A DNA stretch of 64,000 bases from Naegleria gruberi (lineage: Eukaryota), in NCBI GenBank assembly GCA_000004985.1, contig GG738857.1. One strand, written 5' to 3'. The notes beneath the pieces are model-generated. The model did no database searches, was not told the DNA's origin, and worked only from the letters and a program-made list of their open reading frames with translations. How positions within the stretch are numbered: the first letter of the stretch is position 1; each line of letters opens with the position of its first letter. Of the stretch, positions 5,046 through 57,099 are shown piece by piece. The position numbers were made by a program, and so were the translations under genes.

Positions 5046-6212
5046 TTAGTAATACGTTCTTGATTCCTCTCTGACGAGTTTAACAATCCTTCCATCCTCC
5101 TCAATGTTGAACATAACATTTACAATATCGTATGAACCTCCTCCAGCATTGTAATAGAGTGGAAAGACATAGTGATCCAAATGTTTCATTTCAGCACTGT
5201 GGTCATCTAGTAATTGCAGTTTGTTCTTGATTGTTTCGATATCTGACAGAGACAACCACCGCAAGTCTACAATCTCAATGTTTGGACATAATTGAATATT
5301 TGATGAGAGTCCATCTCTTCTAATGCTTTCCATGAGAAGAGATGGTGTTACTTGAGATGGAACAGGATGAGGACTCGACTTGACATAAATCACATCAGAT
5401 AGCTTTATCTTGAGTAAGATATCATTCTTGAACCACCTTTCCAAAATTTCATCTCCATTCTCTTGTAATGTACACAACAGAACAGCTGCAATTGATTCTT
5501 CCAAGGTGAAATTATCCAAGCATAGTTCATCAAACGTGTCCGAAGAAGGTATCACTCGTATTATATCATTGTACAAGTTTGGAACGTAATCACCAACAGA
5601 CAATAATTCATAGACAAGGCAAGTAACATAAATTCCTGTCAATTTCTTCCTCACTGTTTCACTATCGTTGTACTTTTCAATAATTTCACTTCTCAAATCG
5701 AATGGAAATTCATAAAACGAGACACTGTGAGGTAATCTCACATCACCAATTTCCATTGAGATTGGATCTGAATCAAATGGAGAATTCCAATCCTTAACCA
5801 AATCAACATTTCCATAATTCTCTCTAGAAAGACTCTTAATTGAAAATTCCTCCTCATTAATTTCTTTAATTCCAGTCTTTATCTTTTTAGGAAGTTTTGC
5901 AAATTGTAATTGGAGAATTCTGAGCCAATCCACTTCTTCCCTCTGTTCTCCCACTCGTAAATATTCATCACTATTGGTACTACTATTATTACTAAACTCT
6001 AGCTCGGTGATAATTGTATTCATCCCGAATATTTGATCAATTTTTAAAAAATCAATCAAGGCTTGTTTGAACAAAAATTGCATAGATTGAATGGCACGGA
6101 ACCAATCGGAACAAACTCTGAGTGATCTTAATTGTTCATCCAGTGGAAGATAACCCATGATCACTGTGATGATATCACCACAGAGTATGTGAGAGGAATT
6201 GCTTTGCTTCAT
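5046..6212 (-). CDS. F-box-like protein (388 aa)
   Basis: N-terminal ILCGDIITVIMGYLPLDEQLRSLRVCSDWFRAI matches the F-box consensus. ATG at 6212-6210, TAA stop. Confidence 0.5.
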   Translation of the reverse strand: MKQSNSSHILCGDIITVIMGYLPLDEQLRSLRVCSDWFRAIQSMQFLFKQALIDFLKIDQIFGMNTIITELEFSNNSSTNSDEYLRVGEQREEVDWLRILQLQFAKLPKKIKTGIKEINEEEFSIKSLSRENYGNVDLVKDWNSPFDSDPISMEIGDVRLPHSVSFYEFPFDLRSEIIEKYNDSETVRKKLTGIYVTCLVYELLSVGDYVPNLYNDIIRVIPSSDTFDELCLDNFTLEESIAAVLLCTLQENGDEILERWFKNDILLKIKLSDVIYVKSSPHPVPSQVTPSLLMESIRRDGLSSNIQLCPNIEIVDLRWLSLSDIETIKNKLQLLDDHSAEMKHLDHYVFPLYYNAGGGSYDIVNVMFNIEEDGRIVKLVREESRTYY

Positions 6213-6278
6213 TTTTTTTGAACTTGTTTTGTAAACAGAATTGACAACTTGCTGAAATAGATTGGTATTGAGAATTGT

Positions 6279-8534
6279 TTATTCAAGATGAGCAATGGAA
6301 TCTGAAATAATCTTTCTTGTCTTTTCCAATTCTTCATCACTCACCTTACAGTTAGTCAACTTGGATCTCTGCAAGAGAATATTTACCAACTTGTTACTCT
6401 CTTTATCATATTCGAACAAGTAAAAATACTTGTTAAAATCTAGCAATGTAATCTGGTGGCAGATATATGGAATGTTTGCTTCCTTAGAGTAGGGTGAGTT
6501 AATCTGACTTGCCAAATATCTCAATAACTGCTGCTTTGGATTGTTCAGTCTTTCTTCGCTAATTGGAACACCATTTCTTTCATCTTCATCTTGATAAATG
6601 GCATCCAACATTGATACATAGTACTCATAAATTGTTCCTTCCTTTCTTCCATAGCAAACTTGTAATGGAATTATATTTTCACTTGGAGGGGTGTATTCTG
6701 GCAATGTAGCATCTCCCTCATCATTCCACATATGTCCAATAGATATTTCATTTGTTTGGGTCTTCAGTCTTTGCCAAACTTCAAAATCATCAAATGGATA
6801 TGCAAAGCACTTTAAAAACTTGTCCTTCAAATCACAAACAAATCCATTGGCCTGCAAATGGAAGTAATTCACACGATCAATCTTTTTCAATTCCTCTCTG
6901 TTCAGATAGAGAACATTTACAAAGGACTGTCTCTCTGAGTCAACACATGAAATGCTCTCCACAAAAATCTTCTTGTACTTTTCCAAAATTTCCAACTTTT
7001 CTGCATAGCTCACATTCTCGTCTCTGTACAAGTGAGCCTTCAATTCTGGATAAAATTCACTAATTTCACTCTTGGAATATAATTCACAACCATATAACAC
7101 TAGGGCAAGTGTTTGACCCAATCTGAAAGCCATAAATTTTAAATCATCTGGATGCAGTTTGCTGGTGAGCTTTGTAAAGTCCATCTCAGCCAAGGATAAT
7201 CGCTTCAATTTGAATGAAGGAACATTGAGTGCCTTGATGCAAAAGCTTCTCACCTCCTTACATCTTCTTACCTTACCAATTAAATTGACAAGTGTCATGC
7301 AAACCTTTAGTGGAACCAATCTTCTGACACGTCCTCTGATTTGACATGGATACTTTTGTTCATGGAGAGGATAAGTTGTGAAAAGAGCATTATTGGCCTC
7401 ATCAACCAATCCCTTAAACACATCAACCAAATATCCCTTATCAGTGTCACTTTTCAATTCGCTATAATCTTCTGATCGAATCAAAACTAAATTTCTATCC
7501 TCAGTTCCAGATGCTCTAATAAACAAATTACAATCATTTTCAGGAGGTAACTTATCCTTGAAAATATAAATGATGTCAACATCAGAGGAATCCTTTGAGC
7601 CATGATGGTAAAATGGCACCTCAACAGCTGTTGGTTGAGCAGAAGAGTTGATAACTTCCTGAGCTGTACTTGTTCCTTCAAACTTGGTAAGAAAATCATT
7701 CAATGAAAATTCCAAATTCCAGCTCTTCTTCCAATCCTTCCATCCCTTCATGACAGAGAAGGTTCTATCTGTATTTCTTGAACTCTCAACTAGTTTGTTC
7801 CATTCCCCAGTCTTGAATAAATCCTGATTGTCAGTTGTCTTGATAATTATAATTTCCTGATTCTTATCTGTAGCATTCAATTCTGAAACAAGTGGATAAC
7901 CCAAAATCAGCAAGTCAGCACAATTCAGAACTGAACTCGTCTCATTGGTTAAATCTTCCTCCAGAAACATAATCTTATTCAACCAATTCTTCTTATGACC
8001 CAATAATTTACAAACCCAATTTATCTTTGTGGTCATTATTCTAATACATTCATCCCTATCAATACTGAGCGAGTACTTTCCATCATCATTTCCACTAACC
8101 TCATCATTAAAGAATGAAATCTGTGGAATTCTCTTAAAATACACTGAACTATTCACAGGATTCAAAGTTGTGAATAATTTAAAATCAATGGTCTTGTACT
8201 TTTCCTCATACTGATAAACTTCCAACAAAATCCCCTTTGTGTTATCCACTGTCAAATCCTCCTTCGAAAAGAAGTCCCGATCCATCAAAATTTGACTCAA
8301 TTTATACTGATCACCCTTTTCCAAATGAAAACCAGCAGGCTTCCTCATCATTTCAAGTGGTGATGGAATTTTCTTTCCGAATTTTTCGCAATATCTTTCA
8401 TAAAGCACCTGATCCAGCCTATATAAACAATTATCCATGTTGATAAATATTTTTCTTCTTTTTGTATTCTTTGTTGTGGAGCCTGATGAGCTGCACGAGT
8501 GGGTGTGATTGCTGTCAGAGGCCATGTTGAGCAT
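6279..8534 (-). CDS. Large hypothetical protein (about 751 aa from first in-frame ATG); contains a GS...DxD motif suggestive of a nucleotidyltransferase fold
   Basis: The track ORF 6279-8732 starts on TTG. The first in-frame ATG is 8534 (MLNMASDSNHTH...), with a poly-A leader just upstream on the coding strand. Motif FYHHGSKDSSDVDIIYIF. No confident family call. Confidence 0.5.
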   Translation of the reverse strand: MLNMASDSNHTHSCSSSGSTTKNTKRRKIFINMDNCLYRLDQVLYERYCEKFGKKIPSPLEMMRKPAGFHLEKGDQYKLSQILMDRDFFSKEDLTVDNTKGILLEVYQYEEKYKTIDFKLFTTLNPVNSSVYFKRIPQISFFNDEVSGNDDGKYSLSIDRDECIRIMTTKINWVCKLLGHKKNWLNKIMFLEEDLTNETSSVLNCADLLILGYPLVSELNATDKNQEIIIIKTTDNQDLFKTGEWNKLVESSRNTDRTFSVMKGWKDWKKSWNLEFSLNDFLTKFEGTSTAQEVINSSAQPTAVEVPFYHHGSKDSSDVDIIYIFKDKLPPENDCNLFIRASGTEDRNLVLIRSEDYSELKSDTDKGYLVDVFKGLVDEANNALFTTYPLHEQKYPCQIRGRVRRLVPLKVCMTLVNLIGKVRRCKEVRSFCIKALNVPSFKLKRLSLAEMDFTKLTSKLHPDDLKFMAFRLGQTLALVLYGCELYSKSEISEFYPELKAHLYRDENVSYAEKLEILEKYKKIFVESISCVDSERQSFVNVLYLNREELKKIDRVNYFHLQANGFVCDLKDKFLKCFAYPFDDFEVWQRLKTQTNEISIGHMWNDEGDATLPEYTPPSENIIPLQVCYGRKEGTIYEYYVSMLDAIYQDEDERNGVPISEERLNNPKQQLLRYLASQINSPYSKEANIPYICHQITLLDFNKYFYLFEYDKESNKLVNILLQRSKLTNCKVSDEELEKTRKIISDSIAHLE

Positions 8535-8760
8535 TTTTTTTTGTAAGGAAATGGTAAAGTTGACAAACGAATGTAATAGATTCGAACTTAACGAGAGATT
8601 GGAAATTGCACTTGATAAAGATAGTTTCAATTGATAATAGCATATCACTAATATAATGAGTGCAACATCAAATAAAAAATGAACTACTGTGGGGAAAAAG
8701 CAAATAATTTGGCGCCAAAAACAATCGACCAAAAATTGGAATTTTTCAAAAACAAAAAAA

Positions 8761-10464
8761 ATGCTTAAAAGGTAGGTTCATAATGTTCGGAACCAACAAG
8801 AACACATTTGTTTTAGAAAATCATGTTTTGACTTTACAGGCGTTTCTGATATTTCCAATTTATTGCCACATTATGTGGTTGCGATCGATAATTTTGAACA
8901 GAGTAAATTGCTTTCATCATCACCAAAACAAAAAGAAAATCACATGAACAATCAATTGCAGCAACATCAATTTAAATATTATCAATATTACTTTTTGAGC
9001 CATTGTCATAGTGATCACTTTAAAGGGCTTGATGATAGATTCTTTCAGAATGCATCGGCAAGTGATGAGACATGCATTGTTTGTCATCCGATAACTAGAA
9101 ATTTGCTTCTTGCACTTTATCCAAAATTAGATAAGGATAGAATATTGGCTATCGATTTATTGCAACCTACTTTATTGACTGTGAGAGGTGCATCTTCTAA
9201 GGAACCAAAACATTTCATGTGCACATTATTAAGCTCTAATCATTGCCCTGGTTCCTGTATGTTTCTATTTGAAATTGCCAAGCCAGGTTCTCCAAATGAA
9301 GTGGAAAGTATATTGTATTGTGGTGACTTTAGGGATCCACCATCAGACACTATACAATATTTGAAATCAAAGAAAATTTCAAAGGTTTATATTGATGACA
9401 CTTTTTGTGACCCTTCTAATTTCCTTAATTTACCAAAGCGATCTGATAGTATCAAGGAGCTTATCAAATTAATAGAAAAGGAAAGAGCAAAACAAAGAGC
9501 TGTTTATATTGCACTTGATTTATTGGGAACGGAAAGAGTTTTATTCGAATTAGTAAGCCATTTCAAGACTAAATTATTTTGTGATTATGAGAATTTGAAT
9601 CCTAAAAGAAGAAAGGAAATTGATTGTATGAAATCACTCAAAGAAAATATTTTCACACGAGATAAGGAGAAAACTTTCATTAGAGTTGTTTCCAAAACCA
9701 CCATCAAATCACTAGCTGAATTACTGAAAAAGGAAGATGACTGCCCACTTTTGATATGTATCTCTACAATGTTTCTCAAATATTTGAATAAGGATACTCG
9801 TGGAATGTCCTCTAGTTTTGATAGAGGATCTAGCACTTATTTCCAGGATGGTATTTTTAAAATATTGTATTCATTCCATTCATCTCACAAGGAAATTCTC
9901 AAATTCTTAGAACAAGTATTTGGATCGAATGTGAAGGAGTATCCTTCCATCATTTCTCTCAATCCTCACCAAACATCCTCTAAAAACAATAAGAATCTTC
10001 TCGATGACATTCGTAAAGGAACCTCTTCCACTAAGGTTGAAGATGATTCCAAAGATTATGGATTCTTTTCAGACACTGAAACCCTTTTCAAGGAGGAACA
10101 TGTTGTCATTAAGGACAACTTTCTTGAGACCCTCATTGAAAAGAGGAGAAGCAGTTCACAGAGAGATGACGAAGAATTATTCTCTTCTCTTGAAACAGAA
10201 CCATACACAGCCATACCAGAGGAAGATCTGGATGCAGAAAAACTCTTCGAAGAATTCAACTCTCAACAGGACGAGCTCGTCACACCAACCACTTCTCATC
10301 CAATAACCTTCTCGCTGATGAGTCCCTTCACTCCTCAGCCACCATCATCACAAAAGAAGAGACTCAACTCATCATCAAACGATGAGTCTTTCAACATGTT
10401 AAATCTCAGTGAAGATGACAATACACCAAAACAATCGGAAAAGAAGAAGAAAAAATTGGAGTGA
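8761..10464 (+). CDS. DNA cross-link repair nuclease, SNM1/PSO2/Artemis family (metallo-beta-lactamase plus beta-CASP); join(8761..8771,8817..10464)
   Basis: YFLSHCHSDHFKGL is the MBL HxHxDH motif characteristic of SNM1. The track ORF begins on TTG at 8863. Proposed 11-nt first exon ATGCTTAAAAG, then a 45-nt GTAGGT...TTTTAG intron (8772-8816), giving a phase-consistent join (MLKRKSCFDFTGVSDISNLLPHYVVAIDNF...). TGA stop. Confidence 0.65.
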
Positions 10465-33356: not shown

Positions 33357-33406
33357 NNNNNNNNNNNNNNNNNNNNNNNNNNNNNNNNNNNNNNNNNNNN
33401 NNNNNN
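33357..33406. other. Assembly gap (50 N)
   Basis: Run of N in the sequence. Confidence 0.99.
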
Positions 33407-38508: not shown

Positions 38509-38940
38509 TTACAATTTATTCTTGTCGGCAGTTGCTGCAAGAATGTAAATTCTACAATTTGCATTTCTTTGTCTATTCTCTTTCAAAATATCAAAGTATG
38601 TACTGTTTCTACTTTGTAACAAGTTAATATTATTCACAATGATGGTATTAAAGTGATTAATTTTGGCTTGTCCTGGATAATCACCTAAAACATCATTAAA
38701 AGCATCCCAATTATTTCCAAAATAATCCACAAATTGTAAAGTTTCATTAAAAGTTGTGAATAATGCTTGAGCCGAGTCCAGTTTATCTCCTCTCACATTG
38801 ATAATGGCCACATTTTGATTGGTATTCAATTTGTCCTTGCAACCTTGTTCGATTTGAGCAAGTTTACTTCTCTCTAAAAAGATAATTTCATCTTGTTGGT
38901 TATTCAAGATATCTTGAATCAATGTATTAAAATCTGACAT
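38509..38940 (-). CDS. Barstar-like (barnase-inhibitor fold) protein, 143 aa
   Basis: Core aligns with the barstar family signature: AIINVRGDKLDSAQALFTTFNETLQFVDYFGNNWDAFNDVL vs barstar [39 protein letters not shown]; C-terminal RIYILAA vs ITIILS. ATG at 38940, TAA stop. Confidence 0.55.
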   Translation of the reverse strand: MSDFNTLIQDILNNQQDEIIFLERSKLAQIEQGCKDKLNTNQNVAIINVRGDKLDSAQALFTTFNETLQFVDYFGNNWDAFNDVLGDYPGQAKINHFNTIIVNNINLLQSRNSTYFDILKENRQRNANCRIYILAATADKNKL

Positions 38941-39681: not shown

Positions 39682-41145
39682 ATGAAGCGGAGGTTATTGA
39701 GCATGATTCCTCAGCATCAGAGAGTGGTGGGATTGCTTGTGCTGATCGTGATGATGATGATAATAACATTAAATATTGTCGAGTCCGCATCAAACTCTAG
39801 AAATATTAAACTTGTTGATCAAAAAGGCTATATAGATAGCGATTGTACAAATTGTATAAAAAGTAATAAGGGTATGAAATCTTGATCAATTAATTGGATA
39901 TTCATTATAATTATATTATTAATTAATTAATTAATTAATTAATTGGAAATTTATTTCATTGTATTTGGAAAATATAGTTTGGTGTGCTTTGGAACATGTA
40001 TGCACCAATACTATCGCGGAATGCCAATCAAGACAGCCATTCAATGCTACATGGTTTGTTTCTCCATCTGTGAAGGATGGTTCATTAGAAAGTGTGGAAG
40101 CAATACCTCTTCATTGTCAGACAGGTATTATAACATCATTGGATCAATGTCCAAGTTTTAGATGTAAGTAATATTCCTCTAATACTATTGGAACTGATTA
40201 ACAAATATATTTACTATTGAATATTAAATATTATTAAATATTAATATGATGTAAATATTTTGGATTGAAATGTAAATAGTTGATGTTATACGTTCTTCGG
40301 AAAGTATTCTGAGAAACTTTGTGGTACCAATGACACAACAACCAATTCTTAGTTTACTATCAAAGAATTTGGAGCCATTCGAGTATCAATATGATCAAAC
40401 TAATGGAGAGAATAGGAATTTTGCTGTTGGAGCTTATTATGTATCGACACTTTCTTCATTAAAGGAAGGAAAACCAAAAGTCTCAGATAGACCTGGGCTC
40501 TACTTTTCATACAATTTTCACACAGATCATGTTTCACCAATTATTTATCAACCTGCTGTGAGTGTACAAGATTACAGACTTGTAAAGTTTGCTGATCTTT
40601 CTGTTGCAGTTCAACAACCTAATAATTATTATAGATTGGGATATTCTATCATTAGAAGAGTGGACATTGCTAATTCTTCATTCTCCTATCAATGTTCGTT
40701 CAATTCTACTAACTATGATGTTTGGATTGATCCGGATTACAAATTTACATACACTGGATTCCATGTTGTTGCTGGTATTCCATTGTTGGTTATTTCTGTT
40801 ACCTTACTCTCGGTTCTTTCCTTATGTTGTGTCAACAAGTTTGCCATCACCAAACACAACAGATCTCTCTTATTGAAGGATGAAGAGGAAGAACAATACT
40901 TTGATGAAATTCACACAGAAATGTGCATGACCTCAAAGGAAAAGGAAGGTTTCAAACAAAAAAAGAAGGATTATCAAGATTTTATCATTTACAAACACAG
41001 AAGAAACTTCTTTGGGGAGACACTATTCAAAAAACCAATACCTAACTCTGAAACTAATTCATTTGATCAAGCTGATGATGAGGAAAAGTTTACTGATCTC
41101 AAGAGCAAATTGAAGCATGTTTCAAGATTTTATAATCCATTTTAG
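39682..41145 (+). CDS. Type I membrane protein with signal peptide and Cys-rich ectodomain; join(39682..39871,39978..40163,40280..41145). May be the N-terminal part of the downstream OSCA-like gene
   Basis: Signal peptide MKRRLLSMIPQHQRVVGLLVLIVMMMIITLNIVESA. Two phase-consistent introns: 39872-39977 (GTATGA...ATATAG, contains the (TTAA)n run) and 40164-40279 (GTAAGT...AAATAG). TM helix VVAGIPLLVISVTLLSVLSLCCV, acidic cytoplasmic tail, TAG stop at 41143-41145. Confidence 0.5.
39917..39944. repeat. (TTAA)n / (AATT)n microsatellite, about 7 units, inside intron 1 of the 39682 gene
   Basis: attaattaattaattaattaattaatt, seen directly. Confidence 0.8.
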
Positions 41146-41214
41146 AATTTTACCATCTCTCTTCTTTTTGATACTCAATTGGTTAATCAATGTGGTACAG
41201 ATGTATACTATTAT

Positions 41215-43313
41215 ATGTGGTTCAGCAAGTATTTGATTGTTTATGTGGTTGTTTGTGGATTGGTTGCTTGTGGCTCTCTTTTGCCAACCTATTTGACCAC
41301 CACTGATTACAATGTCTCATTTGGTGACTTTTCTTCAACTAGTATTGCCAACATGAGTATCAAGACCAATGATAAGATTTACGTCTTTTTCCTTGTTACT
41401 ATTGCATTCCCAATCCTTGGTCTTGTCTTTATTTATGGTTTGAATAGATTGTCTAGACAGTTAATCAAGTCAAGAACCAACATTGGTTCCTTGTACACTG
41501 TCATGGTTAATGGAATTTCAAGAAGTGTAAGAGATAGGAAGAAATTATTGGAGGACTTTAAGCAAAGATATGGAGATTGTGTTGTTGATGCCCATTTAGC
41601 TCTTGATCTCAATAATTTGAGTGAATTGGATGAAAAGAGAGAGGATTTGGAGAGGATGTTGAGAGGAGCTGAACGTGAATATGAAAAGAGTGGCCGTAGA
41701 CCACAAATCAAAGTTAAGGGTCTGATGGGATTTTTCGGAAAGAAGGTTGATGCTATTGAAGAATACAGCAAGGCCTTGGAAAGTGTCAATAAGGAGATTA
41801 ACATTCTCAGACTCAATCCAAACAAGACTATTCACGGTACCGGATATGGATTTGTGACCTTCTCAACAATGGATGACGCACAAAGATGTCTCAATGAACA
41901 CAAGGATATCAATTGTTGTTGTGGTATTTCTATTCCTTGGTGGTTATGCTCTCCAAGTGGATGGGGATACGGAGGTATTGAAAGAGCTCCAGAACCAGAT
42001 GATGTTCTCTTTGAAAATTTGAGTATTGGATCAACCAATCGTTGGGTTAGATCATTGATCTCATCTGCTGTTATTACATCCTTCTTGCTTTTGATCTATG
42101 CCATCTCAACAACAGTTTCCTGGTACTATTGGTATAAGGGTCAAAACTATAGCTCTGTAAAAGATTACTTTATAGATACTGATGCTTCCGTTATTGGAGT
42201 TGATACTTTGGCCTTAGTTTTGATGGTTCTGGCCGAGTTGTTGCCTGAAGCCGTCTCACTCACCAATGAAATTGTTAAACCAGTCATTGAAGTTTTGAGT
42301 GACTATGAAAAGCATCCATCAAGAACATCCAGAAGAAAAACCATCCTCAGAAAGACAATTTTCTTTATTACCTTGTCTATTATGATCTTCCCATTCTTTA
42401 TCAGATGGATTAAGGCTGTGTGGGGTGTTAGTATGAATGCAGATTTTCCATTCAACAATTATGCCTATTTTTTCAACTTTATTGGCACTGAAGTGGCTAC
42501 ACTTATTATGGCTTTGTGTACAATTGCCAAATCTTTGGAATATACATTCATGTTTATCATTATAATGGTCAAGTATAGATTCAGTGACAATGGTAATGGA
42601 AATAGGGAATTAGAAAGACTTCCTTTCGATTATGAAGCCAACATTGGAGTCAAGATTGCAATTCTCATGCTAACCCTTCTTTACGGAAGTGCTGTCCCAT
42701 GCATGTTTGCATTCTCCTTAATTTACTATGTGGTTACTTATTATTTGGACAAGTATTTGATTTTATACTTTTTCGAGAAGGCCCCAGACAGTGATGGTAC
42801 TCTAATGAGAACTACTTCAGACACATTGGCTTACTATCTTTCCATCTATCCAATTTTGGTTATTTTCATGATTCCTTCATTGGCTAGCTTATGGTCAACT
42901 TGGCTTATTTACTTGCCAACTATTTTTGTTTTCTACATGGTTGTTCGTATTGTTAGAAATAGAATGTCAAGATCAGAGATGGACATGTTGGTAGTTTCCT
43001 TGAGTAGTATGCCTCATGATGATATTGAAAAACAAGAGGAAGTGGATATTAATGCAGGAGATAGTTTGGAAATGGAGGTTACCGATTCAGCTAGTCCATC
43101 TTCACCAATTTCCATTCCTCAAAGAATTCCAGTCAAGAATGGCATTGCCACATCCTCTATTAGGTCCTTGATGAGCTTTGTTGCTGGTGAGGAACAAGTA
43201 GTTTCCATCTATGATAAGGAAGTTGAGAAACGTCTTGATGTCGATCAAAGAGTATTGGCCTCTCGTTACAGACATCCATACTTGAAAAAGGATAAGAGAA
43301 GAGCTGCATCAGC
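41215..43313 (+). CDS. OSCA/TMEM63/CSC1-like stress-gated cation channel, 3' end lost in gap (partial)
   Basis: TM pair followed by the cytosolic RRM-like domain (TVMVNGISRSVRDRKKLLEDFKQRYG..., NPNKTIHGTGYGFVTFSTMDDAQRCL) and multiple C-terminal TM helices typical of the family. The track start at 41179 is TTG; the first in-frame ATG is 41215. The frame runs into the N-run at 43314. Confidence 0.7.
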
Positions 43314-44236
43314 NNNNNNNNNNNNNNNNNNNNNNNNNNNNNNNNNNNNNNNNNNNNNNNNNNNNNNNNNNNNNNNNNNNNNNNNNNNNNNNNNNNNNNN
43401 NNNNNNNNNNNNNNNNNNNNNNNNNNNNNNNNNNNNNNNNNNNNNNNNNNNNNNNNNNNNNNNNNNNNNNNNNNNNNNNNNNNNNNNNNNNNNNNNNNNN
43501 NNNNNNNNNNNNNNNNNNNNNNNNNNNNNNNNNNNNNNNNNNNNNNNNNNNNNNNNNNNNNNNNNNNNNNNNNNNNNNNNNNNNNNNNNNNNNNNNNNNN
43601 NNNNNNNNNNNNNNNNNNNNNNNNNNNNNNNNNNNNNNNNNNNNNNNNNNNNNNNNNNNNNNNNNNNNNNNNNNNNNNNNNNNNNNNNNNNNNNNNNNNN
43701 NNNNNNNNNNNNNNNNNNNNNNNNNNNNNNNNNNNNNNNNNNNNNNNNNNNNNNNNNNNNNNNNNNNNNNNNNNNNNNNNNNNNNNNNNNNNNNNNNNNN
43801 NNNNNNNNNNNNNNNNNNNNNNNNNNNNNNNNNNNNNNNNNNNNNNNNNNNNNNNNNNNNNNNNNNNNNNNNNNNNNNNNNNNNNNNNNNNNNNNNNNNN
43901 NNNNNNNNNNNNNNNNNNNNNNNNNNNNNNNNNNNNNNNNNNNNNNNNNNNNNNNNNNNNNNNNNNNNNNNNNNNNNNNNNNNNNNNNNNNNNNNNNNNN
44001 NNNNNNNNNNNNNNNNNNNNNNNNNNNNNNNNNNNNNNNNNNNNNNNNNNNNNNNNNNNNNNNNNNNNNNNNNNNNNNNNNNNNNNNNNNNNNNNNNNNN
44101 NNNNNNNNNNNNNNNNNNNNNNNNNNNNNNNNNNNNNNNNNNNNNNNNNNNNNNNNNNNNNNNNNNNNNNNNNNNNNNNNNNNNNNNNNNNNNNNNNNNN
44201 NNNNNNNNNNNNNNNNNNNNNNNNNNNNNNNNNNNN
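43314..44236. other. Assembly gap (923 N)
   Basis: Run of N. The track ORF 43309-44256 and the X-stretches are gap artefacts. Confidence 0.99.
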
Positions 44237-46174
44237 CTCATCATTATCCTCTCCATCTGAAGATCGATTCGTATTTTTCACAAATAAACAGCAATAAATT
44301 GAACAACTCGAGAAACAGAGCAAAACTAAAAAGGTCAACCCTAACACTCCAACCATTCCATATCCAACCTCAATTGGGAATGTGTTAAAAATTGGAATCT
44401 TTGGACTTCTACTATAAATAAGTGGGAAGAATAAACAAATGGCAGAGAAGAGTAGAAAGATGAGTACAATAATCAATGTGCATAGCCCTCCAAAAGCACA
44501 GCACAGAGAATACCAAATATTATCACCTGGTGTTGAAGTTTGCTCAATCACTGCTGCAGGAATATAAATCCCAGAATTGTTACTTGTTGAAAAGGATGAA
44601 AAGTAGCTCGGTATCTTCTTAATTTGAACAATATTCTGATTCAAATCTTGTTGGTGAACTGCTTGTTGCTGCTGCTGACCTTCTTGATTGCCGATTGCTG
44701 CTGCTGTTGCATTAGTGTTAGCTCCATTTCCCTCTTCAAGTTTGTGTTGTTGGTTTGGATTTTCCATTGTATTGACATTCTGGTGTTCATTCTCGTCCTT
44801 TGTGTGAAGTTTGAAAAGTGTTTTAATTCCCTCAAAGTTTTCAGCACTCGTTATATGCAAATAACACAGCAATTGTTCACTCGTATACTTGGACAGCAAT
44901 CTCTTACTTCTATAATAGTCATAGTAACGATAGTTTTGTCTGAGCTTTCTTCTCTTTGATTCCAATTCTTCAACTTCTTGATTATCTATGATATTGTGAT
45001 AATCAAATTCAATTTCAAAATTTGGGAAAAACTTGACTCCAATATCATAAATTGCTTCCTCAAATACCTCGTGATAATGTGCCAGAGTTGACTTTCTAAA
45101 TTTGTGTTTTGGTCTATTCTTAATATTAAATACTATACAAAGGAGAATGCATCCAACAAGTGTAATTGTGAAAATTGCACTCAAAACTATTGAAAAAGTT
45201 CCTTCAGCAACTGCATCTTTTAAAACTACAAAGTAAATGAGAGCTAGTGCCAAAGTACCGACAGCAGCTGCCAAAGTTGAAACACACAAAATGAAAAGGT
45301 AGACATTGACAGATTCGAATATTGAACATTTCATCAATTCATCTTGAGTAATTCGTTTCATCACATTTCCCAATAGCATTAATTCCTTTCTCTGTTTATC
45401 AGTCAAATTCAATGAATGAAGTGAATAAATTATTTGTTGTTGTTGCAAAATGGTCAATCGTGTTCTCAAATGTGCTGGAATTTGTGGAATTTCAGAAAGT
45501 AAATCAAACGAAATTGGTGGAGGATCTTGACTTTTCAACAATTCCAATTCATCAGGTGTAAAATCAAGATCATTATCTAACAAATCATTTTCTGTATCGT
45601 CATCATCATAATCTTCCTTTCGTTTCTTTTTCTTCTTTTTTCCTGAATTTTCTTGTTTTTGATCTACTGCACCTTGTTGCTCAACTGTTGTTGCTGTTGC
45701 TGTTGCCACTACTACACCTGCTAATTGTTGTTGTTGTTGTGGTTGTTGTGGTGATTGAGGCACAGTGGAAGGAGAGGCAACTCTATTTGGTTGTAAAGGA
45801 TGATCATTGGTTGTAATGGGTGGTGAACAGGCAATATTTCCATCATTGTGAATGTTATTGTTGTTGGTACTGCTGTTGTTCGGAATATTGTTCAATTGTA
45901 CTGTCATTTCCTGTTGTTGTTGTTGTTGTTGCAAATTCAAATTCAAATTCAAATTATTAATAGTATTATTATTAGTATTGGAATTAATTTGATTTGGTGG
46001 TAATGAGACAAGTGTTGGTTGATCGAAATTTCTAGTGATGGTTTTTTCGGGAGAGTTATTGTTTATATCTGGTAGGACAACAATAATTTGAGAAGCATCA
46101 TGGTTAGTCGTGGCCACCTCCTCCAATTTGGACTTGTCACTTGCTTGTTCGTTATTGGGATGGAGTTGTGACAT
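44237..46174 (-). CDS. Hypothetical multi-pass membrane protein with Q/N-rich N-terminal region (partial, C-terminus in gap)
   Basis: ATG at 46174 (MSQLHPNNEQASDKSKLEEV...). Several predicted TM segments (LFILCVSTLAAAVGTLALALIYFVVL, SIVLSAIFTITLVGCILLCIVFNI, WYSLCCAFGGLCTLIIVLIFLLFSAICLFF). The frame is open into the N-run. Confidence 0.5.
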
Positions 46175-50828: not shown

Positions 50829-51993
50829 NNNNNNNNNNNNNNNNNNNNNNNNNNNNNNNNNNNNNNNNNNNNNNNNNNNNNNNNNNNNNNNNNNNNNNNN
50901 NNNNNNNNNNNNNNNNNNNNNNNNNNNNNNNNNNNNNNNNNNNNNNNNNNNNNNNNNNNNNNNNNNNNNNNNNNNNNNNNNNNNNNNNNNNNNNNNNNNN
51001 NNNNNNNNNNNNNNNNNNNNNNNNNNNNNNNNNNNNNNNNNNNNNNNNNNNNNNNNNNNNNNNNNNNNNNNNNNNNNNNNNNNNNNNNNNNNNNNNNNNN
51101 NNNNNNNNNNNNNNNNNNNNNNNNNNNNNNNNNNNNNNNNNNNNNNNNNNNNNNNNNNNNNNNNNNNNNNNNNNNNNNNNNNNNNNNNNNNNNNNNNNNN
51201 NNNNNNNNNNNNNNNNNNNNNNNNNNNNNNNNNNNNNNNNNNNNNNNNNNNNNNNNNNNNNNNNNNNNNNNNNNNNNNNNNNNNNNNNNNNNNNNNNNNN
51301 NNNNNNNNNNNNNNNNNNNNNNNNNNNNNNNNNNNNNNNNNNNNNNNNNNNNNNNNNNNNNNNNNNNNNNNNNNNNNNNNNNNNNNNNNNNNNNNNNNNN
51401 NNNNNNNNNNNNNNNNNNNNNNNNNNNNNNNNNNNNNNNNNNNNNNNNNNNNNNNNNNNNNNNNNNNNNNNNNNNNNNNNNNNNNNNNNNNNNNNNNNNN
51501 NNNNNNNNNNNNNNNNNNNNNNNNNNNNNNNNNNNNNNNNNNNNNNNNNNNNNNNNNNNNNNNNNNNNNNNNNNNNNNNNNNNNNNNNNNNNNNNNNNNN
51601 NNNNNNNNNNNNNNNNNNNNNNNNNNNNNNNNNNNNNNNNNNNNNNNNNNNNNNNNNNNNNNNNNNNNNNNNNNNNNNNNNNNNNNNNNNNNNNNNNNNN
51701 NNNNNNNNNNNNNNNNNNNNNNNNNNNNNNNNNNNNNNNNNNNNNNNNNNNNNNNNNNNNNNNNNNNNNNNNNNNNNNNNNNNNNNNNNNNNNNNNNNNN
51801 NNNNNNNNNNNNNNNNNNNNNNNNNNNNNNNNNNNNNNNNNNNNNNNNNNNNNNNNNNNNNNNNNNNNNNNNNNNNNNNNNNNNNNNNNNNNNNNNNNNN
51901 NNNNNNNNNNNNNNNNNNNNNNNNNNNNNNNNNNNNNNNNNNNNNNNNNNNNNNNNNNNNNNNNNNNNNNNNNNNNNNNNNNNNNNNNNNNNN
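50829..51993. other. Assembly gap (1165 N)
   Basis: Run of N. Track ORFs 50591-51997 and 50819-52015 are extended through N and are artefactual beyond the gap edges. Confidence 0.99.
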
Positions 51994-54220: not shown

Positions 54221-56176
54221 ATGATTACCAAAACAGAAGAGGTGGTAAACGGTATGACTATAATAACTCCAACAAAAATGGAGGAAAAAATGGAACCTCA
54301 AATTCCAAGTGACCCCATAATAGGGGGAAGGTTATCCAAATTTTCAAAGGAGTGGGAAAAGATAACCTCCAACAAAACAATATTAGATTGGGTAAAGAAT
54401 GGTCTAACAATCAACCACAACCCCCAACTAATCCATCCACTTCCACAGAGAGAACCAACGAAAGAGAAAGAGAAAATTTGGTTCCAAGAACACATAGAAC
54501 AACTGAAACAACAAGAAATGATTATAGAAGTTTCCAACAAAGAAGAAGTATTAATTCACCCAATCTACCTCATACCAAAGCGAAATTCAACAGAGCCATT
54601 CAGACCAATTTTAGATATGAGAGGGGCAAACTCTGGAATAGAAACGCTTCACTTCAAACAAGAAACGTTGAAGACAATAATGAAATTGTTAAAAAGAGGT
54701 CAATGGTGTGGAAAAATAGATCTGAAATCTGGTTACAATCACCTAAAAATAGAACGCAATTCACAGCATCTTCTAGCCTTCCAATTCAACAACAAAAGGT
54801 ACAAATACACAACTCTTCCATTTGGGCTAAATATCGCACCAAGAACATTTCACAAGATTATGAAAACAGCAATCACTCAATTAAGAAAAGAAAGTATAGT
54901 CATATTCTTCTATCTGGACGATATTTTAATAATAGGAAATTCCTTTCAAGAATGTCAGAAAAACATAGAAAGAACGAGACAATTATTAGAAAGTCTTGGC
55001 TTTGTAATTCAGATGAAAAAGTCAGTACTGTCTCCTGTTCAAGAAATAGATTTTTTAGGATCAACAATCAACACAAAACTAGGAACACTTTGTCTTCAGA
55101 AAGAAAAAATCAACACAGCCCAAAAGATCCTCAAGAAACTAGAATTGAAACATTTAAGTCAACGAAGAATCAAGATCAGAAAGTTCCAATCAATAATAGG
55201 GAAATTGATGTTCCTAAGTACAATAGACAAGAACTTAAGACCTTTTCTAATTCGACCTCAACATCACATTTCAAATATGGTAACAAAGAAAGGATGGTTA
55301 GGAGAAATGCATATCTTACGAAGCGATTTTCAAGATTTAAAGACAATCTCTGCAATCCTAAAACAATCAAAAGGAACAACGTTCGAACTAGAAACAACAT
55401 TACAAATCCTAACAACGGACTCATCGACGACAGGTTTTGGTGGAGTATCCAAAAACCTAATAATGCATGGCAGATGGAGCCATCAAATTCAAGAATACCA
55501 TATCAATTTAAAAGAATTACTAGCAGTCGAACAAATGATATTGGCAATTCAAAAGAACAAGTCTTTTTCAAAAGGAACACAATTTCACGTACGAACAGAC
55601 AATCAAGTAATCATGACTTACCTCAAGAATGGAGGAGGAAAAGTAGATTACTTAGCAACAGTAGCAAGAAGAATATGGAAAATATGTATCAACAACAATT
55701 GGCTAATCAGAAAAGTAACGTACCTTCCTTCCAAAGAAAATTTCTTTGCAGACAAGCTCTCAAGATTGGGAGAATGGGAAATAATCAATTCAACTTTCAA
55801 TCAACTCCAGCAAAAATTTGGTCCTTTCAGCATAGACCAATTTGCAAGCCAAACAAATTGCAAAGTAAGAAGGTTCGGTCAAAGAAACTTCTATCAGGAT
55901 GCTTTTTTGAACAATTGGGAACAGGAGAACAATTATTTGGTTCCTCCCTTAGGCTTAATCCTCCCAACAGTAACACACTTACTAAAAAGCAAAGCAAAGG
56001 CTCTTCTAATCGTTCCAAAATGGGAAAGCGCAGTTTGGTGGCCAGTTCTAATGAAGATAACACAAGAAACATTATTCTTAACGAAAGAGGACATGATCTT
56101 CAATCAAGACATGGAACTATCCAGAAACTCAGAATGGAACTTTGTAGCACTAAAGGTTCAAGCAACCACCTACTAA
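54221..56176 (+). CDS. ORF2, reverse transcriptase plus RNase H of the DIRS/Ngaro-like element (651 aa)
   Basis: RT motifs (IPKRNSTEPFRPILDMRGAN, FQFNNKRYKYTTLPFGLNIAPRTF, IFFYLDDILIIG). RNase H (TDNQVIMTYLKNGGGK...ENFFADKLSR). The DIRS-typical downstream block FSIDQFASQTNCKVRRF...LVPPLGLILPTV...ALLIVPKWESAVWWPVL. Confidence 0.8.
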   Translation: MITKTEEVVNGMTIITPTKMEEKMEPQIPSDPIIGGRLSKFSKEWEKITSNKTILDWVKNGLTINHNPQLIHPLPQREPTKEKEKIWFQEHIEQLKQQEMIIEVSNKEEVLIHPIYLIPKRNSTEPFRPILDMRGANSGIETLHFKQETLKTIMKLLKRGQWCGKIDLKSGYNHLKIERNSQHLLAFQFNNKRYKYTTLPFGLNIAPRTFHKIMKTAITQLRKESIVIFFYLDDILIIGNSFQECQKNIERTRQLLESLGFVIQMKKSVLSPVQEIDFLGSTINTKLGTLCLQKEKINTAQKILKKLELKHLSQRRIKIRKFQSIIGKLMFLSTIDKNLRPFLIRPQHHISNMVTKKGWLGEMHILRSDFQDLKTISAILKQSKGTTFELETTLQILTTDSSTTGFGGVSKNLIMHGRWSHQIQEYHINLKELLAVEQMILAIQKNKSFSKGTQFHVRTDNQVIMTYLKNGGGKVDYLATVARRIWKICINNNWLIRKVTYLPSKENFFADKLSRLGEWEIINSTFNQLQQKFGPFSIDQFASQTNCKVRRFGQRNFYQDAFLNNWEQENNYLVPPLGLILPTVTHLLKSKAKALLIVPKWESAVWWPVLMKITQETLFLTKEDMIFNQDMELSRNSEWNFVALKVQATTY

Positions 56177-57099
56177 CATTATTCAAAGCAAGAGATGTTA
56201 TCCTCAAATACAAGTTAGCTGATTCGACAATCAGAACATACAGAAACCACGTTAACAAATTTAAAGATTTTTGTTTCTGGTATAACATTGAAAGATGTTG
56301 GAATCTGAATTCCATTTCCCTTTATCTCACAAACATGTTATTGAAAGGCTCAGGTGGGTCAGTGAAACAAGCATGTGCCGCCCTTCAACATGAAACCAAA
56401 TGTTTGGGCATTGTGGTTGATTGGAAAAATTCAATAATTTCCGATATCAGATCATCTACAACAAAGATATGGTCTCTCTTTGATAGAGAAAAACTAATTA
56501 GAGAACCATTTGATTTAGCTAACCTAAAATATTGGTTAGAAAACCCACCAAACATTGACCCTTGGTCATTCAAACTCTATGCTGCAGTAATTGCTGTTGG
56601 TGTTCGTGCATTAATGAGACCTGGAGAGTTAGCGGATTTGTCATTCGGTGATGTGTCTTACAATAAGGATGGTCATTTAGTTTTCACTTTAGGACAAACA
56701 AAAACAGATCAACAAGGAAAAGGTGAAAAAATTACTATTGAACCTTCCTATTCCGAAATATGTCCTGTCAAAATATTCCAAACCTATTATGATCACTGTA
56801 AGCAATTTAAATCTCCTAAGTGCCCATTATTTAGCAACCCTAGATCCAACACATTCTTTAGAACTGCAGATATTTCTAATATAGTGAAATATGTATCACA
56901 ACATAATCCAAACAACACTTCAATTGTCTCTGGACATTCACTTAGAAAAAGAGGTGCTACACATCTTGCAAAATCTGGTTACACATCTTCTCAACTAAAA
57001 GTTGCTGGACGATGGAGATCTGATTGTTACTTAACATACATATCAGAAGAAATCTTACCTTCCTTAGGTACTTCAAATACTTTATTCTCGGGACAATAA
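56134..57099 (+). CDS. ORF3, tyrosine recombinase (YR) of the DIRS/Ngaro-like element; part of a 915-codon open frame (54352-57099) overlapping ORF2 in the +1 frame
   Basis: YR catalytic residues in order: VRALMRPGELADL (Arg), HSLRKRGATHLAKSGY (His-x-x-Arg), GRWRSDCYLTYI (Tyr). First ATG after the ORF2 stop region is at 56134. The stop at 57097-57099 abuts repeat B1. Confidence 0.75.
   Translation: MELCSTKGSSNHLLTLFKARDVILKYKLADSTIRTYRNHVNKFKDFCFWYNIERCWNLNSISLYLTNMLLKGSGGSVKQACAALQHETKCLGIVVDWKNSIISDIRSSTTKIWSLFDREKLIREPFDLANLKYWLENPPNIDPWSFKLYAAVIAVGVRALMRPGELADLSFGDVSYNKDGHLVFTLGQTKTDQQGKGEKITIEPSYSEICPVKIFQTYYDHCKQFKSPKCPLFSNPRSNTFFRTADISNIVKYVSQHNPNNTSIVSGHSLRKRGATHLAKSGYTSSQLKVAGRWRSDCYLTYISEEILPSLGTSNTLFSGQ

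What the first reader, a model, noticed from the sequence alone, without database searches (positions are those of the whole stretch)
39682..43313. Signal-peptide ectodomain gene and OSCA/TMEM63-like channel are in the same frame, separated only by a TAG codon
Counted by hand, the upstream gene's last exon (40280-41145, stop TAG at 41143-41145) and the OSCA-like ORF are in the same reading frame. The 33 nt between them contain no other stop. OSCA/TMEM63 channels have three TM helices (TM0-TM2) ahead of the cytosolic RRM-like domain, but the downstream ORF supplies only two. The upstream gene supplies exactly one TM helix in the right orientation (N-out, C-in) plus a cytosolic linker. Together they would form a complete OSCA-like topology with an unusually large Cys-rich extracellular N-terminal domain. 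Possible explanations are a single gene with a sequencing error or programmed read-through at TAG, a recent pseudogenising nonsense mutation, or two genes in frame by coincidence (a one-in-three chance).
Basis: partly seen in the sequence, partly recalled or inferred. Interest (0 to 1): 0.5.

Follow-up and report, generated by a model that had tools for sequence, protein, structure and literature searches.

The report
One OSCA channel gene, locally frame-scrambled
The two reading frames are a single Naegleria gruberi gene for an OSCA/TMEM63-type stress-gated channel with an extra outer domain, and the TAG between them comes from a tiny one-base-gain plus four-base-loss patch in the reference sequence (probably an assembly error, possibly a very recent lesion), so the finding is ordinary.

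Summary
With two introns removed, 39682-43313 is one 3411-nt frame with a single stop, TAG 41143-41145. The window is Naegleria gruberi. The locus is already annotated as one gene (NAEGRDRAFT_65302, XP_002679504.1), whose model skips the stop with a 27-nt pseudo-intron.

Orthologues in N. fowleri, N. lovaniensis and Willaertia magna are single ORFs. Homology to solved TMEM63B runs across the stop. The upstream helix is collinear with TM0 of Pfam RSN1_TM.

The TAG is not a plain nonsense codon. A closer relative (ENA metagenome contig L004, 88% identical) reads NPF-RILQSLFF-SS-DTQ without interruption. Against it, N. gruberi has one extra T at 41140-41143 and lacks 4 nt after 41168. The stretch 41144-41167 encodes RILPSLFF one base out of frame, and TAG is T plus AG of an Arg codon.

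Downstream dN/dS is 0.06, with no acceleration on the N. gruberi branch. No recoding signal was found.

Most likely this is an intact gene with a consensus error in the draft assembly (about 0.6). A very recent real lesion is the main rival (about 0.3). Interest is low.

The parts
39682..39871 (+). Exon 1: start codon, signal-peptide-like helix (residues 15-33) and the start of the Cys-rich module
   Evidence: The exon is missing from the annotated model P0001 but is conserved in Willaertia and in N. lovaniensis.
39978..40163 (+). Exon 2: Cys-rich, PSI-like module (C66, C72, C79, C110, C121)
   Evidence: The Pfam PSI match is weak: E = 0.042, 14.6 bits, below the 23.1-bit cutoff. AF2 local pLDDT is 80-90 only for this module.
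40280..43313 (+). Exon 3: rest of the ectodomain, TM0, cytosolic linker, the scrambled patch, TM1-TM10 and most of the C-terminal tail. It is cut off by the N gap at 43314-44236, about 10 codons before the stop expected from the orthologues.
40765..40833 (+). TM0 (residues 288-310, VVAGIPLLVISVTLLSVLSLCCV)
   Evidence: Hydropathy 2.57 and positive-inside flanks. Collinear with RSN1_TM profile positions 3-6 onward once the linker is trimmed.
41119..41145 (+). The 27-nt 'intron' of the GenBank/JGI model (GTTTCA...TTTTAG). It removes VSRFYNPF and the stop, and I judge it an annotation device rather than a real intron.
   Evidence: The removed residues are conserved in all relatives. The equivalent stretch in L004 is 26 nt, which is not a multiple of 3. 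The local HMM scores the intron version 107.8 bits against 130-139 bits for the unspliced versions.
41140..41143 (+). T4 run that carries one extra base relative to the close relative (CCATTTTAGA against CCATTCAGA)
41143..41145 (+). The in-frame TAG: the extra T plus the first two bases (AG) of an out-of-frame AGA (Arg) codon
41144..41167 (+). Out-of-frame island. Read one base later it encodes RILPSLFF, which matches RILQSLFF in L004 and TILKSIFF in N. fowleri.
41168..41169 (+). Site of the 4-nt deficit (TTTT----TGAT against TTTTCATCTGAT), which returns the sequence to the original frame
41170..41436 (+). RSN1_TM match (profile 64-154), covering the pre-TM1 helix DTQLVNQCGTDVYYY, TM1 (41233-41289) and TM2 (41377-41433)
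41494..42018 (+). PHM7_cyt cytosolic domain with an RRM-like core
   Evidence: 98.5-99.7 bits against a cutoff of 27.
42223..42861 (+). RSN1_7TM pore-domain match
   Evidence: 40.9-42.5 bits against a cutoff of 28.7. Helices located by hydropathy.

Best explanation
Window 39682-43313 is one three-exon N. gruberi gene (NAEGRDRAFT_65302). It encodes, in order:
- a signal peptide;
- a Cys-rich PSI-like module;
- a roughly 170-residue strand-rich ectodomain;
- TM0;
- a roughly 110-residue cytosolic linker;
- a standard OSCA/TMEM63 core: pre-TM1 helix, TM1-TM2, RRM-like cytosolic domain, TM3-TM10.

By homology the product would be a membrane-tension or hyperosmolarity-gated cation channel. This function is inferred, not shown.

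The TAG is a by-product of a local scramble in the reference sequence. There is one extra T in the run 41140-41143, and 4 nt are missing after 41168. The 8 codons in between are therefore read one base out of register. The intended reading is ...SRFYNPF-RILPSLFF-(F/L/S)-DTQLVNQCG...

Shown: this is a single gene, the double indel exists, and the downstream part has been under strong purifying selection.

Inferred: the scramble is most likely a consensus error of the draft Sanger assembly. That could be two clustered base-calling slips in T/C-rich low-complexity sequence, or a chimeric consensus of two haplotypes that differ by a 3-nt indel. On this reading the real gene is intact and makes the full-length channel.
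For: Single gene:
- Orthologues P0002, P0003 and P0004 cover 95-97% of the concatenated protein as single ORFs.
- The profile alignment to TMEM63B (8ehx) spans profile positions 383-1009 across the stop, E = 5.7e-22.
- With the linker trimmed, RSN1_TM aligns from TM0 (profile 3-6) to TM2.
- Relatives P0014 and P0016 have the same layout in one ORF, with RSN1_TM covering TM0.

Double indel:
- L004/P0022 is 88% identical at the protein level and reads NPFRILQSLFFSSDTQ.
- The DNA alignment places a 1-nt gap and a 4-nt gap 28 nt apart, and 22 of 24 island bases are identical.
- The +1-frame peptide scores 24 (BLOSUM62, 8-mer) against N. fowleri. The maximum was 18 in 7,880 off-frame control tests along the gene.
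- An HMM built from six relatives, without N. gruberi, gives 138-139 bits for the frame-corrected junction. It gives 129.8-131.7 bits for frame 1 with any residue at the stop, and 107.8 bits for the annotated intron.
- Pfam RSN1_TM scores 41.1 bits for the corrected junction against 35.4 bits for frame 1.

Intact or very recent:
- No other stop or frameshift occurs in 3.4 kb.
- N. gruberi against L004 downstream: dN 0.057, dS 0.96, dN/dS 0.06.
- Amino-acid changes are 8 on the N. gruberi branch and 8 on the L004 branch.
- The 18 codons just upstream of the stop show 7 synonymous and 0 non-synonymous differences.

Favouring an artefact (inference): two frame-breaking differences that cancel exactly, 28 nt apart, both at T-runs, in an otherwise flawless gene. 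That pattern is expected for clustered consensus errors or a haplotype-chimeric consensus. Naegleria is described as a mainly heterozygous diploid (PMC9928731). It is improbable for independent mutations in a dead gene.
Against: - No read-level or independent N. gruberi sequence could be reached. The collection holds only the reference proteins, and two metagenome scans found nothing. Artefact versus real lesion is therefore not decided by data.
- A 4-nt deficit is larger than a typical base-calling slip. It can be split into a genuine codon loss plus a 1-nt slip, but that split is an assumption.
- The site lies 2.2 kb from the nearest assembly gap, so poor coverage there is not evident.
- A single complex real mutation could also create both indels at once.
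- The key comparator, L004, is a single 807-bp low-coverage metagenome contig. It has its own in-frame TAA about 8 nt from its 5' end.
Confidence: 0.6

Rival explanations
1. The double indel is real in strain NEG-M, or in one of its haplotypes. It would be a very recent null allele or nascent pseudogene of the channel gene. Translation would stop at TAG and yield only a 413-residue signal peptide-ectodomain-TM0-linker protein.
For: The sequence as deposited says so. The JGI annotators had to bridge the stop. N. gruberi has at least one paralogue (P0018) that could cover loss of this copy. T-runs are also hotspots for replication slippage in vivo. NEG-M is a long-cultured axenic laboratory strain (my own knowledge).
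Against: There is no relaxation of constraint on the N. gruberi branch: 8 against 8 amino-acid changes, dN/dS 0.06. There is no second lesion in 3.4 kb. For independent mutations, two indels 28 nt apart that also restore the frame would be a coincidence of roughly 1-2% for the clustering times 1/3 for the frame (my estimate). Restoring the frame has no selective value once a TAG lies between the indels.
Confidence: 0.3
2. The lesion is real, but full-length channel is still made by UAG read-through. Nine residues of the pre-TM1 helix would be replaced by x-NFTISLLF. This might act as a switch between a truncated ectodomain-TM0 protein and the channel.
For: Frame 1 is open on both sides and the downstream part is under strong purifying selection. 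The replacement peptide is still hydrophobic, and SLLF also occurs in P0016. The close relative L004 carries a different in-frame stop in the same linker.
Against: - The stop is absent from every relative at this position.
- The base after the stop is A, a termination-favouring context by general knowledge.
- There is no stable downstream structure: z = +0.35.
- There is no Rfam element and no tRNA in the window.
- TAA, TGA and TAG all close long ORFs in the window, so there is no sign of codon reassignment.
- No literature on read-through in Naegleria was found.
Confidence: 0.04
3. A plain single-base nonsense change or miscall at 41143-41145. On this reading the frame-1 peptide NFTISLLF is the genuine N. 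gruberi sequence.
For: MAFFT alignment of the DNA to the distant orthologues prefers a single 3-nt gap and keeps frame 1. SLLF matches P0016.
Against: The alignment to the 88%-identical relative shows 1-nt and 4-nt gaps with 22 of 24 island bases identical. The frame-corrected junction scores 7-9 bits better on the local HMM than frame 1 with any residue at the stop, and 5.7 bits better on Pfam. The off-frame score exceeds all 7,880 control tests.
Confidence: 0.03
4. The annotated 27-nt intron (41119-41145) is genuine, and the mRNA lacks VSRFYNPF and the stop.
For: It has GT...AG ends and a length that is a multiple of 3. It is part of the GenBank model XP_002679504.1.
Against: - It removes residues conserved in all relatives (SRFYNP[LF]). 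All 7 codon differences from L004 in the 18-codon stretch FTDLKSKLKHVSRFYNPF that contains them are synonymous.
- The equivalent stretch in L004 is 26 nt and lies inside an uninterrupted ORF.
- The donor GTTTCA is unlike the gene's two real donors, and the real introns are 106 and 116 nt long.
- The HMM score drops by 22-31 bits.
- An excess of introns whose length is a multiple of 3 is a known sign of annotation error (PMC1950532, abstract seen).
Confidence: 0.02
5. Two independent genes that happen to share a frame.
For: Such pairs occur by chance in this compact genome, for example at 6279-6281.
Against: A single Pfam domain (RSN1_TM) and the TMEM63B homology are split by the stop. Every relative that spans the junction reads through it without a stop. 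There are only 33 nt between the ORFs. The first ATG (41215) is Leu in every relative and lies after the conserved pre-TM1 helix.
Confidence: 0.01

Closest known systems
OSCA/TMEM63/CSC1 family of mechanically or hyperosmolarity-gated cation channels (solved examples: TMEM63B 8ehx, TMEM63A 8ehw, OSCA1.2 6mgv, OSCA1.1 6jpf, OSCA3.1 5z1f)
   Same: All three family domains are above Pfam's curated cutoffs (RSN1_TM, PHM7_cyt, RSN1_7TM). The profile hit to TMEM63B has E = 5.7e-22 over about 620 residues. The layout is TM0, then a cytosolic linker, a pre-TM1 helix, TM1-TM2, an RRM-like cytosolic domain and eight more helices.
   Different: A roughly 250-residue extracellular extension (after the signal peptide) precedes TM0: a Cys-rich PSI-like module plus a strand-rich domain. 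It has no sequence relative among solved structures. The TM0-TM1 linker is long. Identity to characterised members is only about 20-23%. Channel function is untested.
Heterolobosean orthologues: N. fowleri FDP41_001190, N. lovaniensis C9374_013884, Willaertia magna ABK040_011050
   Same: They are 46-67% identical and collinear from the Cys-rich module to the C-terminal RYRHPYL[KR]KDKR motif.
   Different: They have no stop or frameshift at the junction. The N. lovaniensis model is fused to an upstream LRR gene, and the N. fowleri model lacks the signal peptide. Immediate gene neighbours are not shared with N. gruberi.
Gene-model 'pseudo-introns' that bridge stops or frameshifts in draft genomes (3n-intron artefacts, Roy and Penny 2007, PMC1950532)
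   Same: A 27-nt GT-AG segment, a multiple of 3 in length, removes conserved coding residues together with the stop.
   Different: Nothing notable; this is a textbook case.
Programmed +1 frameshift sites with a slippery P-site codon followed by a stop (bacterial prfB CUU-UGA-C, Euplotes AAA-UAA/UAG, antizyme UCC-UGA-U; from my own knowledge)
   Same: UUU-UAG-A would allow tRNA-Phe to re-pair one base downstream, and the +1 frame then gives the ancestral RILPSLFF.
   Different: A +1 shift alone does not rescue the protein. Because of the 4-nt deficit, the +1 frame leaves the conserved frame at 41168 and, by my reading of the sequence, runs into a TGA at 41234. No canonical -1 slippery heptamer is present there, there is no stimulatory structure, and no relative has the site.

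Membership tests
OSCA/TMEM63/CSC1 channel family | RSN1_TM (PF13967) N-terminal three-helix module | tested here: met
   31.5-32.1 bits against a cutoff of 27 for TM1-TM2. With the linker trimmed the match extends to TM0: profile 6-154 at 35.4 bits, or 3-154 at 41.1 bits with the corrected junction.
OSCA/TMEM63/CSC1 channel family | PHM7_cyt (PF14703) cytosolic domain between TM2 and TM3 | tested here: met
   98.5-99.7 bits against a cutoff of 27, covering profile 2-174 of 174.
OSCA/TMEM63/CSC1 channel family | RSN1_7TM (PF02714) pore-forming region | tested here: met
   40.9-42.5 bits against a cutoff of 28.7, covering profile 51-270 of 274.
OSCA/TMEM63/CSC1 channel family | Sequence homology to solved family members over the whole core | tested here: met
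   24 distinct PDB sequences matched. The best is TMEM63B 8ehx, E = 5.7e-22, profile 383-1009 against chain 102-717.
OSCA/TMEM63/CSC1 channel family | Eleven-helix fold with a peripheral TM0 | tested here: inconclusive
   Hydropathy gives TM0, TM1, TM2 and about eight further hydrophobic stretches. The AF2 model from a 4-sequence alignment was unusable (mean pLDDT 42.4), so no fold search was run.
OSCA/TMEM63/CSC1 channel family | Mechanically or osmotically gated cation conductance | not testable with these tools
   Requires electrophysiology.
Programmed stop-codon read-through or other recoding | Stop codon conserved at the site in relatives | tested here: not met
   All seven relatives that span the junction have sense codons there.
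Programmed stop-codon read-through or other recoding | Stimulatory context or downstream RNA structure | tested here: not met
   The base after the stop is A. The fold of 41146-41245 has z = +0.35. No Rfam hit was found in 40900-41500.
Spliceosomal intron (the annotated 41119-41145) | Not coding: no codon-level constraint, and absent from or variable in relatives' ORFs | tested here: not met
   The segment encodes VSRFYNPF, which is conserved in all relatives. All codon differences from L004 in the 18-codon stretch that contains it are synonymous. It lies inside uninterrupted ORFs in four other genomes.
Spliceosomal intron (the annotated 41119-41145) | Length and splice signals like the organism's real introns | tested here: not met
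   It is 27 nt with donor GTTTCA. The gene's two verified introns are 106 and 116 nt with GTATGA and GTAAGT donors.
Established (old) pseudogene | Relaxed constraint and multiple disabling lesions | tested here: not met
   dN/dS is 0.06 against L004. Branch changes are 8 against 8. There is a single lesion cluster in 3411 nt.

The most novel reading that the evidence does not exclude
The scramble is real in N. gruberi, and the in-frame TAA in the same cytosolic linker of the related environmental amoeba (L004) is real too. In this clade the gene would then normally terminate after TM0, giving a secreted-pathway ectodomain-TM0 protein. The full channel would be made only by occasional stop-codon read-through. 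That would be a translational switch on an OSCA/TMEM63 mechanosensor.
Probability: 0.03. Interest if true: 0.6.

Novelty: already known. Interest (0 to 1): 0.15.

Why it matters
The main value is curation.

- The reference model XP_002679504.1 / D2V8W1 is wrong in three places. It lacks the signal peptide and Cys-rich exons. It has a fake 27-nt intron. Its C-terminus is spliced across an assembly gap.
- The corrected protein is about 1,145 residues long.
- In-frame stops in draft protist genomes should be checked for flanking compensating indels before anyone proposes read-through or a split gene.

One secondary point may interest channel biologists. Naegleria, Willaertia and some uncultured eukaryotes have an OSCA/TMEM63 subfamily with a large extracellular Cys-rich and strand-rich domain fused ahead of TM0. 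I found no description of it in the searched literature. It has no relative among solved structures.

Tried and rejected
- **AF2 models.** The model of TM0 to the C-terminus came from a 4-sequence alignment and had mean pLDDT 42.4. The ectodomain model had mean pLDDT 43.4, with only the Cys-rich module confident. Both were too poor for fold searches, so none were run.
- **Deeper alignments.** The word-indexed protein search returned only 4-6 relatives. Proteins from the exhaustive search cannot be passed to the structure tool, so the alignments could not be deepened.
- **Independent N. gruberi sequence.** The exact look-up found only the reference proteins. A protein-pattern scan and a degenerate DNA-pattern scan of JGI metagenomes found nothing.
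- **DNA alignment to distant orthologues.** MAFFT placed one 3-nt gap and did not reveal the frameshift. Only the 88%-identical relative resolved it.
- **dN/dS against N. fowleri and N. lovaniensis.** dS was saturated, so this was uninformative about how recent the lesion is.
- **Alternative genetic code or suppressor tRNA.** TAA, TGA and TAG all end long ORFs (21, 6 and 2 respectively). There is no tRNA in the window.
- **Programmed +1 frameshift at UUU-UAG.** Rejected because the 4-nt deficit downstream means a single shift cannot restore the conserved frame.
- **Fixed compensated frameshift followed by CAG to TAG.** Considered, because a T inserted into an L004-like TTC-AGA gives TTT-CAG. 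Judged too unparsimonious at three events.
- **Synteny with N. fowleri and N. lovaniensis.** Not conserved at the immediate neighbours.
- **Ectodomain against the PDB by sequence.** No hit up to E = 5.
Full report
**Observation.** The region was read directly and the frames were computed. TAG 41143-41145, the preceding open frame and the following open frame are all in the same phase. The 33 nt between the TAG and the tool's nominal TTG 'start' at 41179 contain no stop. I removed two short AT-rich introns: 39872-39977 and 40164-40279, with GTATGA and GTAAGT donors and ATAG acceptors. Joining exons 39682-39871, 39978-40163 and 40280-43313 then gives 3411 nt with one stop, at codon 414. The ORF runs into an assembly gap (N run 43314-44236).

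The frame coincidence is weak evidence on its own. The same window holds another pair of long open segments in one frame across a single TAA (6279-6281, minus strand); the downstream one has its own ATG 66 nt further on, so they read as two separate genes.

**Identity.** The concatenated protein is 99% identical to 'predicted protein [Naegleria gruberi]', a 999-residue model. Its accessions are EFC46760.1 / XP_002679504.1, locus NAEGRDRAFT_65302, UniProt D2V8W1. It has full-length collinear relatives in three other genomes: N. fowleri (1138 aa, 66% identical), N. lovaniensis (1681 aa, a model fused to an upstream LRR gene) and Willaertia magna (1128 aa, 46% identical, intronless gene). All three read straight through the junction.

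The GenBank model for N. gruberi already joins the two ORFs. It does so by deleting 27 nt (41119-41145, GTTTCA...TTTTAG), which encode VSRFYNPF plus the stop. The same model also drops exons 1-2 by starting at Met143. It replaces the conserved C-terminus (...ASRYRHPYLKKDKR...) with sequence spliced in from beyond the gap.

**Family and topology.**
- Pfam finds RSN1_TM, PHM7_cyt and RSN1_7TM above their curated cutoffs. RSN1_TM starts only at profile position 64 of 156 in the downstream ORF, so TM0 is missing there.
- Hydropathy gives a signal-peptide-like helix (15-33), TM0 (288-310, positive-inside), TM1 (444-462), TM2 (492-510) and about eight further helices.
- When the long TM0-TM1 linker is trimmed, the RSN1_TM alignment extends back to profile positions 3-6 through the upstream helix.
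- A profile of the clade aligns to solved TMEM63B (8ehx) from about 25 residues before the stop to the end of the pore domain, E = 5.7e-22.
- An exhaustive profile search with the ectodomain found more distant proteins with the same layout: P0014 in one ORF, and P0016 with its Cys-rich exon P0019 on the same contig. In them RSN1_TM covers TM0.
- It also found a N. gruberi paralogue hidden in a 'polyubiquitin' fusion model (P0018).

**Nature of the stop.** The nine codons after NPF are anomalously unlike the orthologues in frame 1 (F*NFTISLLF against LTILKSIFFAS). One base later they read RILPSLFF.

I tested this in four ways.
1. Eight-residue off-frame translations along the whole exon never scored above 18 (BLOSUM62) against N. 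fowleri in 7,880 tests. The junction island scores 24.
2. An HMM built from six relatives, without N. gruberi, scores the frame-corrected junction at 138-139 bits. Frame 1 with any residue at the stop scores 129.8-131.7 bits, and the annotated intron version scores 107.8 bits.
3. Pfam RSN1_TM prefers the corrected junction by 5.7 bits.
4. Most decisively, a short junction query recovered P0022, a 251-residue ORF on an 807-bp ENA metagenome contig (L004). It is 88% identical to N. gruberi and reads ...KSKLKHVSRFYNPFRILQSLFFSSDTQTVNQCGTDVYYY....

The DNA alignment between the two is unambiguous:
- N. gruberi: CCA TTTT AGA ATT TTA CCA TCT CTC TTC TTT T----TGAT
- L004: CCA -TTC AGA ATT TTA CAA TCC CTC TTC TTT TCATCTGAT

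So the reference has one extra base in the T-run 41140-41143 and lacks four bases after 41168. The net change is -3. TAG is the extra T plus AG of an Arg codon.

**Age and reality of the lesion.**
- Against N. fowleri, dS is saturated.
- Against L004, the 226 downstream codons give dN 0.057, dS 0.96 and dN/dS 0.06. With the three orthologues as outgroups, amino-acid changes fall 8 on the N. gruberi branch and 8 on the L004 branch.
- The 18 codons just upstream of the stop differ at 7 codons, all synonymous.
- There is no other defect in 3.4 kb.

The part after the TAG has therefore been translated for essentially all of the time since the two lineages split. Either the lesion is extremely recent or it is not in the genome at all.

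Two frame-breaking differences 28 nt apart, both at T-runs and exactly cancelling, are what clustered consensus errors would give. A consensus stitched from two haplotypes that differ by a 3-nt indel would give the same pattern. Naegleria is described as a mainly heterozygous diploid (PMC9928731). For independent real mutations the clustering and the frame restoration would both be coincidences, and restoring the frame has no selective value with a TAG in between.

I put the artefact at about 0.6 and a real, very recent lesion at about 0.3. I could not reach reads or any independent N. gruberi sequence, so this split is inference.

**Recoding, intron and two-gene alternatives.**
- *Recoding.* No relative has a stop at this site. 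The base after the stop is A. The downstream 100 nt fold no better than shuffles (z = +0.35). No Rfam family matches and there is no tRNA in the window. All three stop codons close long ORFs, with TAA at 21, TGA at 6 and TAG at 2. UUU-UAG-A resembles known +1 shift sites, but a single +1 shift cannot help, because the 4-nt deficit takes the +1 frame out of the conserved frame again.
- *Intron.* The 27-nt segment removes residues under codon-level constraint. Its L004 counterpart is 26 nt inside an open ORF. Its donor and length are unlike the gene's two real introns.
- *Two genes.* This is excluded because a single domain and the structural homology are split by the stop. In addition, the first downstream ATG (41215) is Leu in every relative.

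**Caveat.** L004 has its own in-frame TAA about 8 nt from its 5' end, where N. gruberi has TCA. That is probably a contig-end error or a population variant. It is the only observation that keeps a 'biological stop in the linker' reading alive, so I list that reading as the low-probability novel case.

**Comparison with what is known, and verdict.** This is a database-annotated member of the OSCA/TMEM63/CSC1 family. All sequence-defined family features are met. Fold and conductance were not testable (AF2 models too poor). The unusual part is the N-terminal ectodomain. It consists of a signal peptide, a Cys-rich module with only a sub-threshold PSI match and a strand-rich domain with no relative among solved structures. 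It is shared by heterolobosean and some environmental sequences, and I found no paper that describes it.

The finding as posed, a TAG between two in-frame ORFs, resolves to one gene with a small local defect in a draft reference, plus an annotation work-around. That is ordinary and of low interest.

Noticed in passing
window 54221-57099 (+): Two long overlapping ORFs in different frames. The first has RVT_1 (88.9 bits) and a Dam-like methyltransferase domain. The second has a Phage_integrase (tyrosine recombinase) domain. This is the domain set of a DIRS-like retrotransposon.
   Followed up: partly
window 5046-8777 (-), TAA at 6279-6281: Open segments of 832 and 410 codons share a frame across a single TAA. 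The second has its own ATG at 6212, and neither has a Pfam hit. They look like two separate genes and serve as a chance control for the finding.
   Followed up: partly
window 39682-40329 and 43250-44400: The GenBank model XP_002679504.1 starts at Met143, so it omits the signal peptide and Cys-rich exons. It also replaces the conserved C-terminus with sequence spliced from beyond the N gap.
   Followed up: yes
window 43314-44236 (also 33357-33406 and 50829-51993): Assembly gaps (N runs). The first truncates both the channel gene and a convergent minus-strand ORF (43160-46174) that is Q/N-rich and has hydrophobic helices.
   Followed up: no
L004 nt 9-11 (aligned to window 41059-41061): The metagenome contig of the close relative has an in-frame TAA where N. 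gruberi has TCA (Ser), about 8 nt from the contig end. The sequence downstream of it is under purifying selection.
   Followed up: partly
P0018 = XP_002669208.1 (another N. gruberi scaffold): A 1700-residue 'polyubiquitin' model contains a divergent copy of the same ectodomain plus a PHM7_cyt domain ahead of a ubiquitin unit. This is a paralogue of the channel gene fused to a neighbouring gene by the annotation.
   Followed up: partly
P0014; P0016 and P0019 (both from contigs of 9,333 bp); P0017/P0023; P0020; P0012: Environmental or unnamed sequences carry the same layout of signal peptide, Cys-rich module, strand-rich domain and OSCA core. The ectodomain-bearing subfamily is therefore wider than Naegleria and Willaertia.
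   Followed up: partly
L003 6001-11600 and L001 6001-9719: The N. lovaniensis model fuses about 560 residues of an LRR protein to the orthologue and skips part of the Cys-rich exon. The N. fowleri model starts after the signal peptide.
   Followed up: no
window 38509-38940 (-): A 143-residue ORF just upstream of the channel gene has a Barstar (barnase inhibitor) domain at 47.8 bits, an unusual domain for a eukaryote.
   Followed up: no
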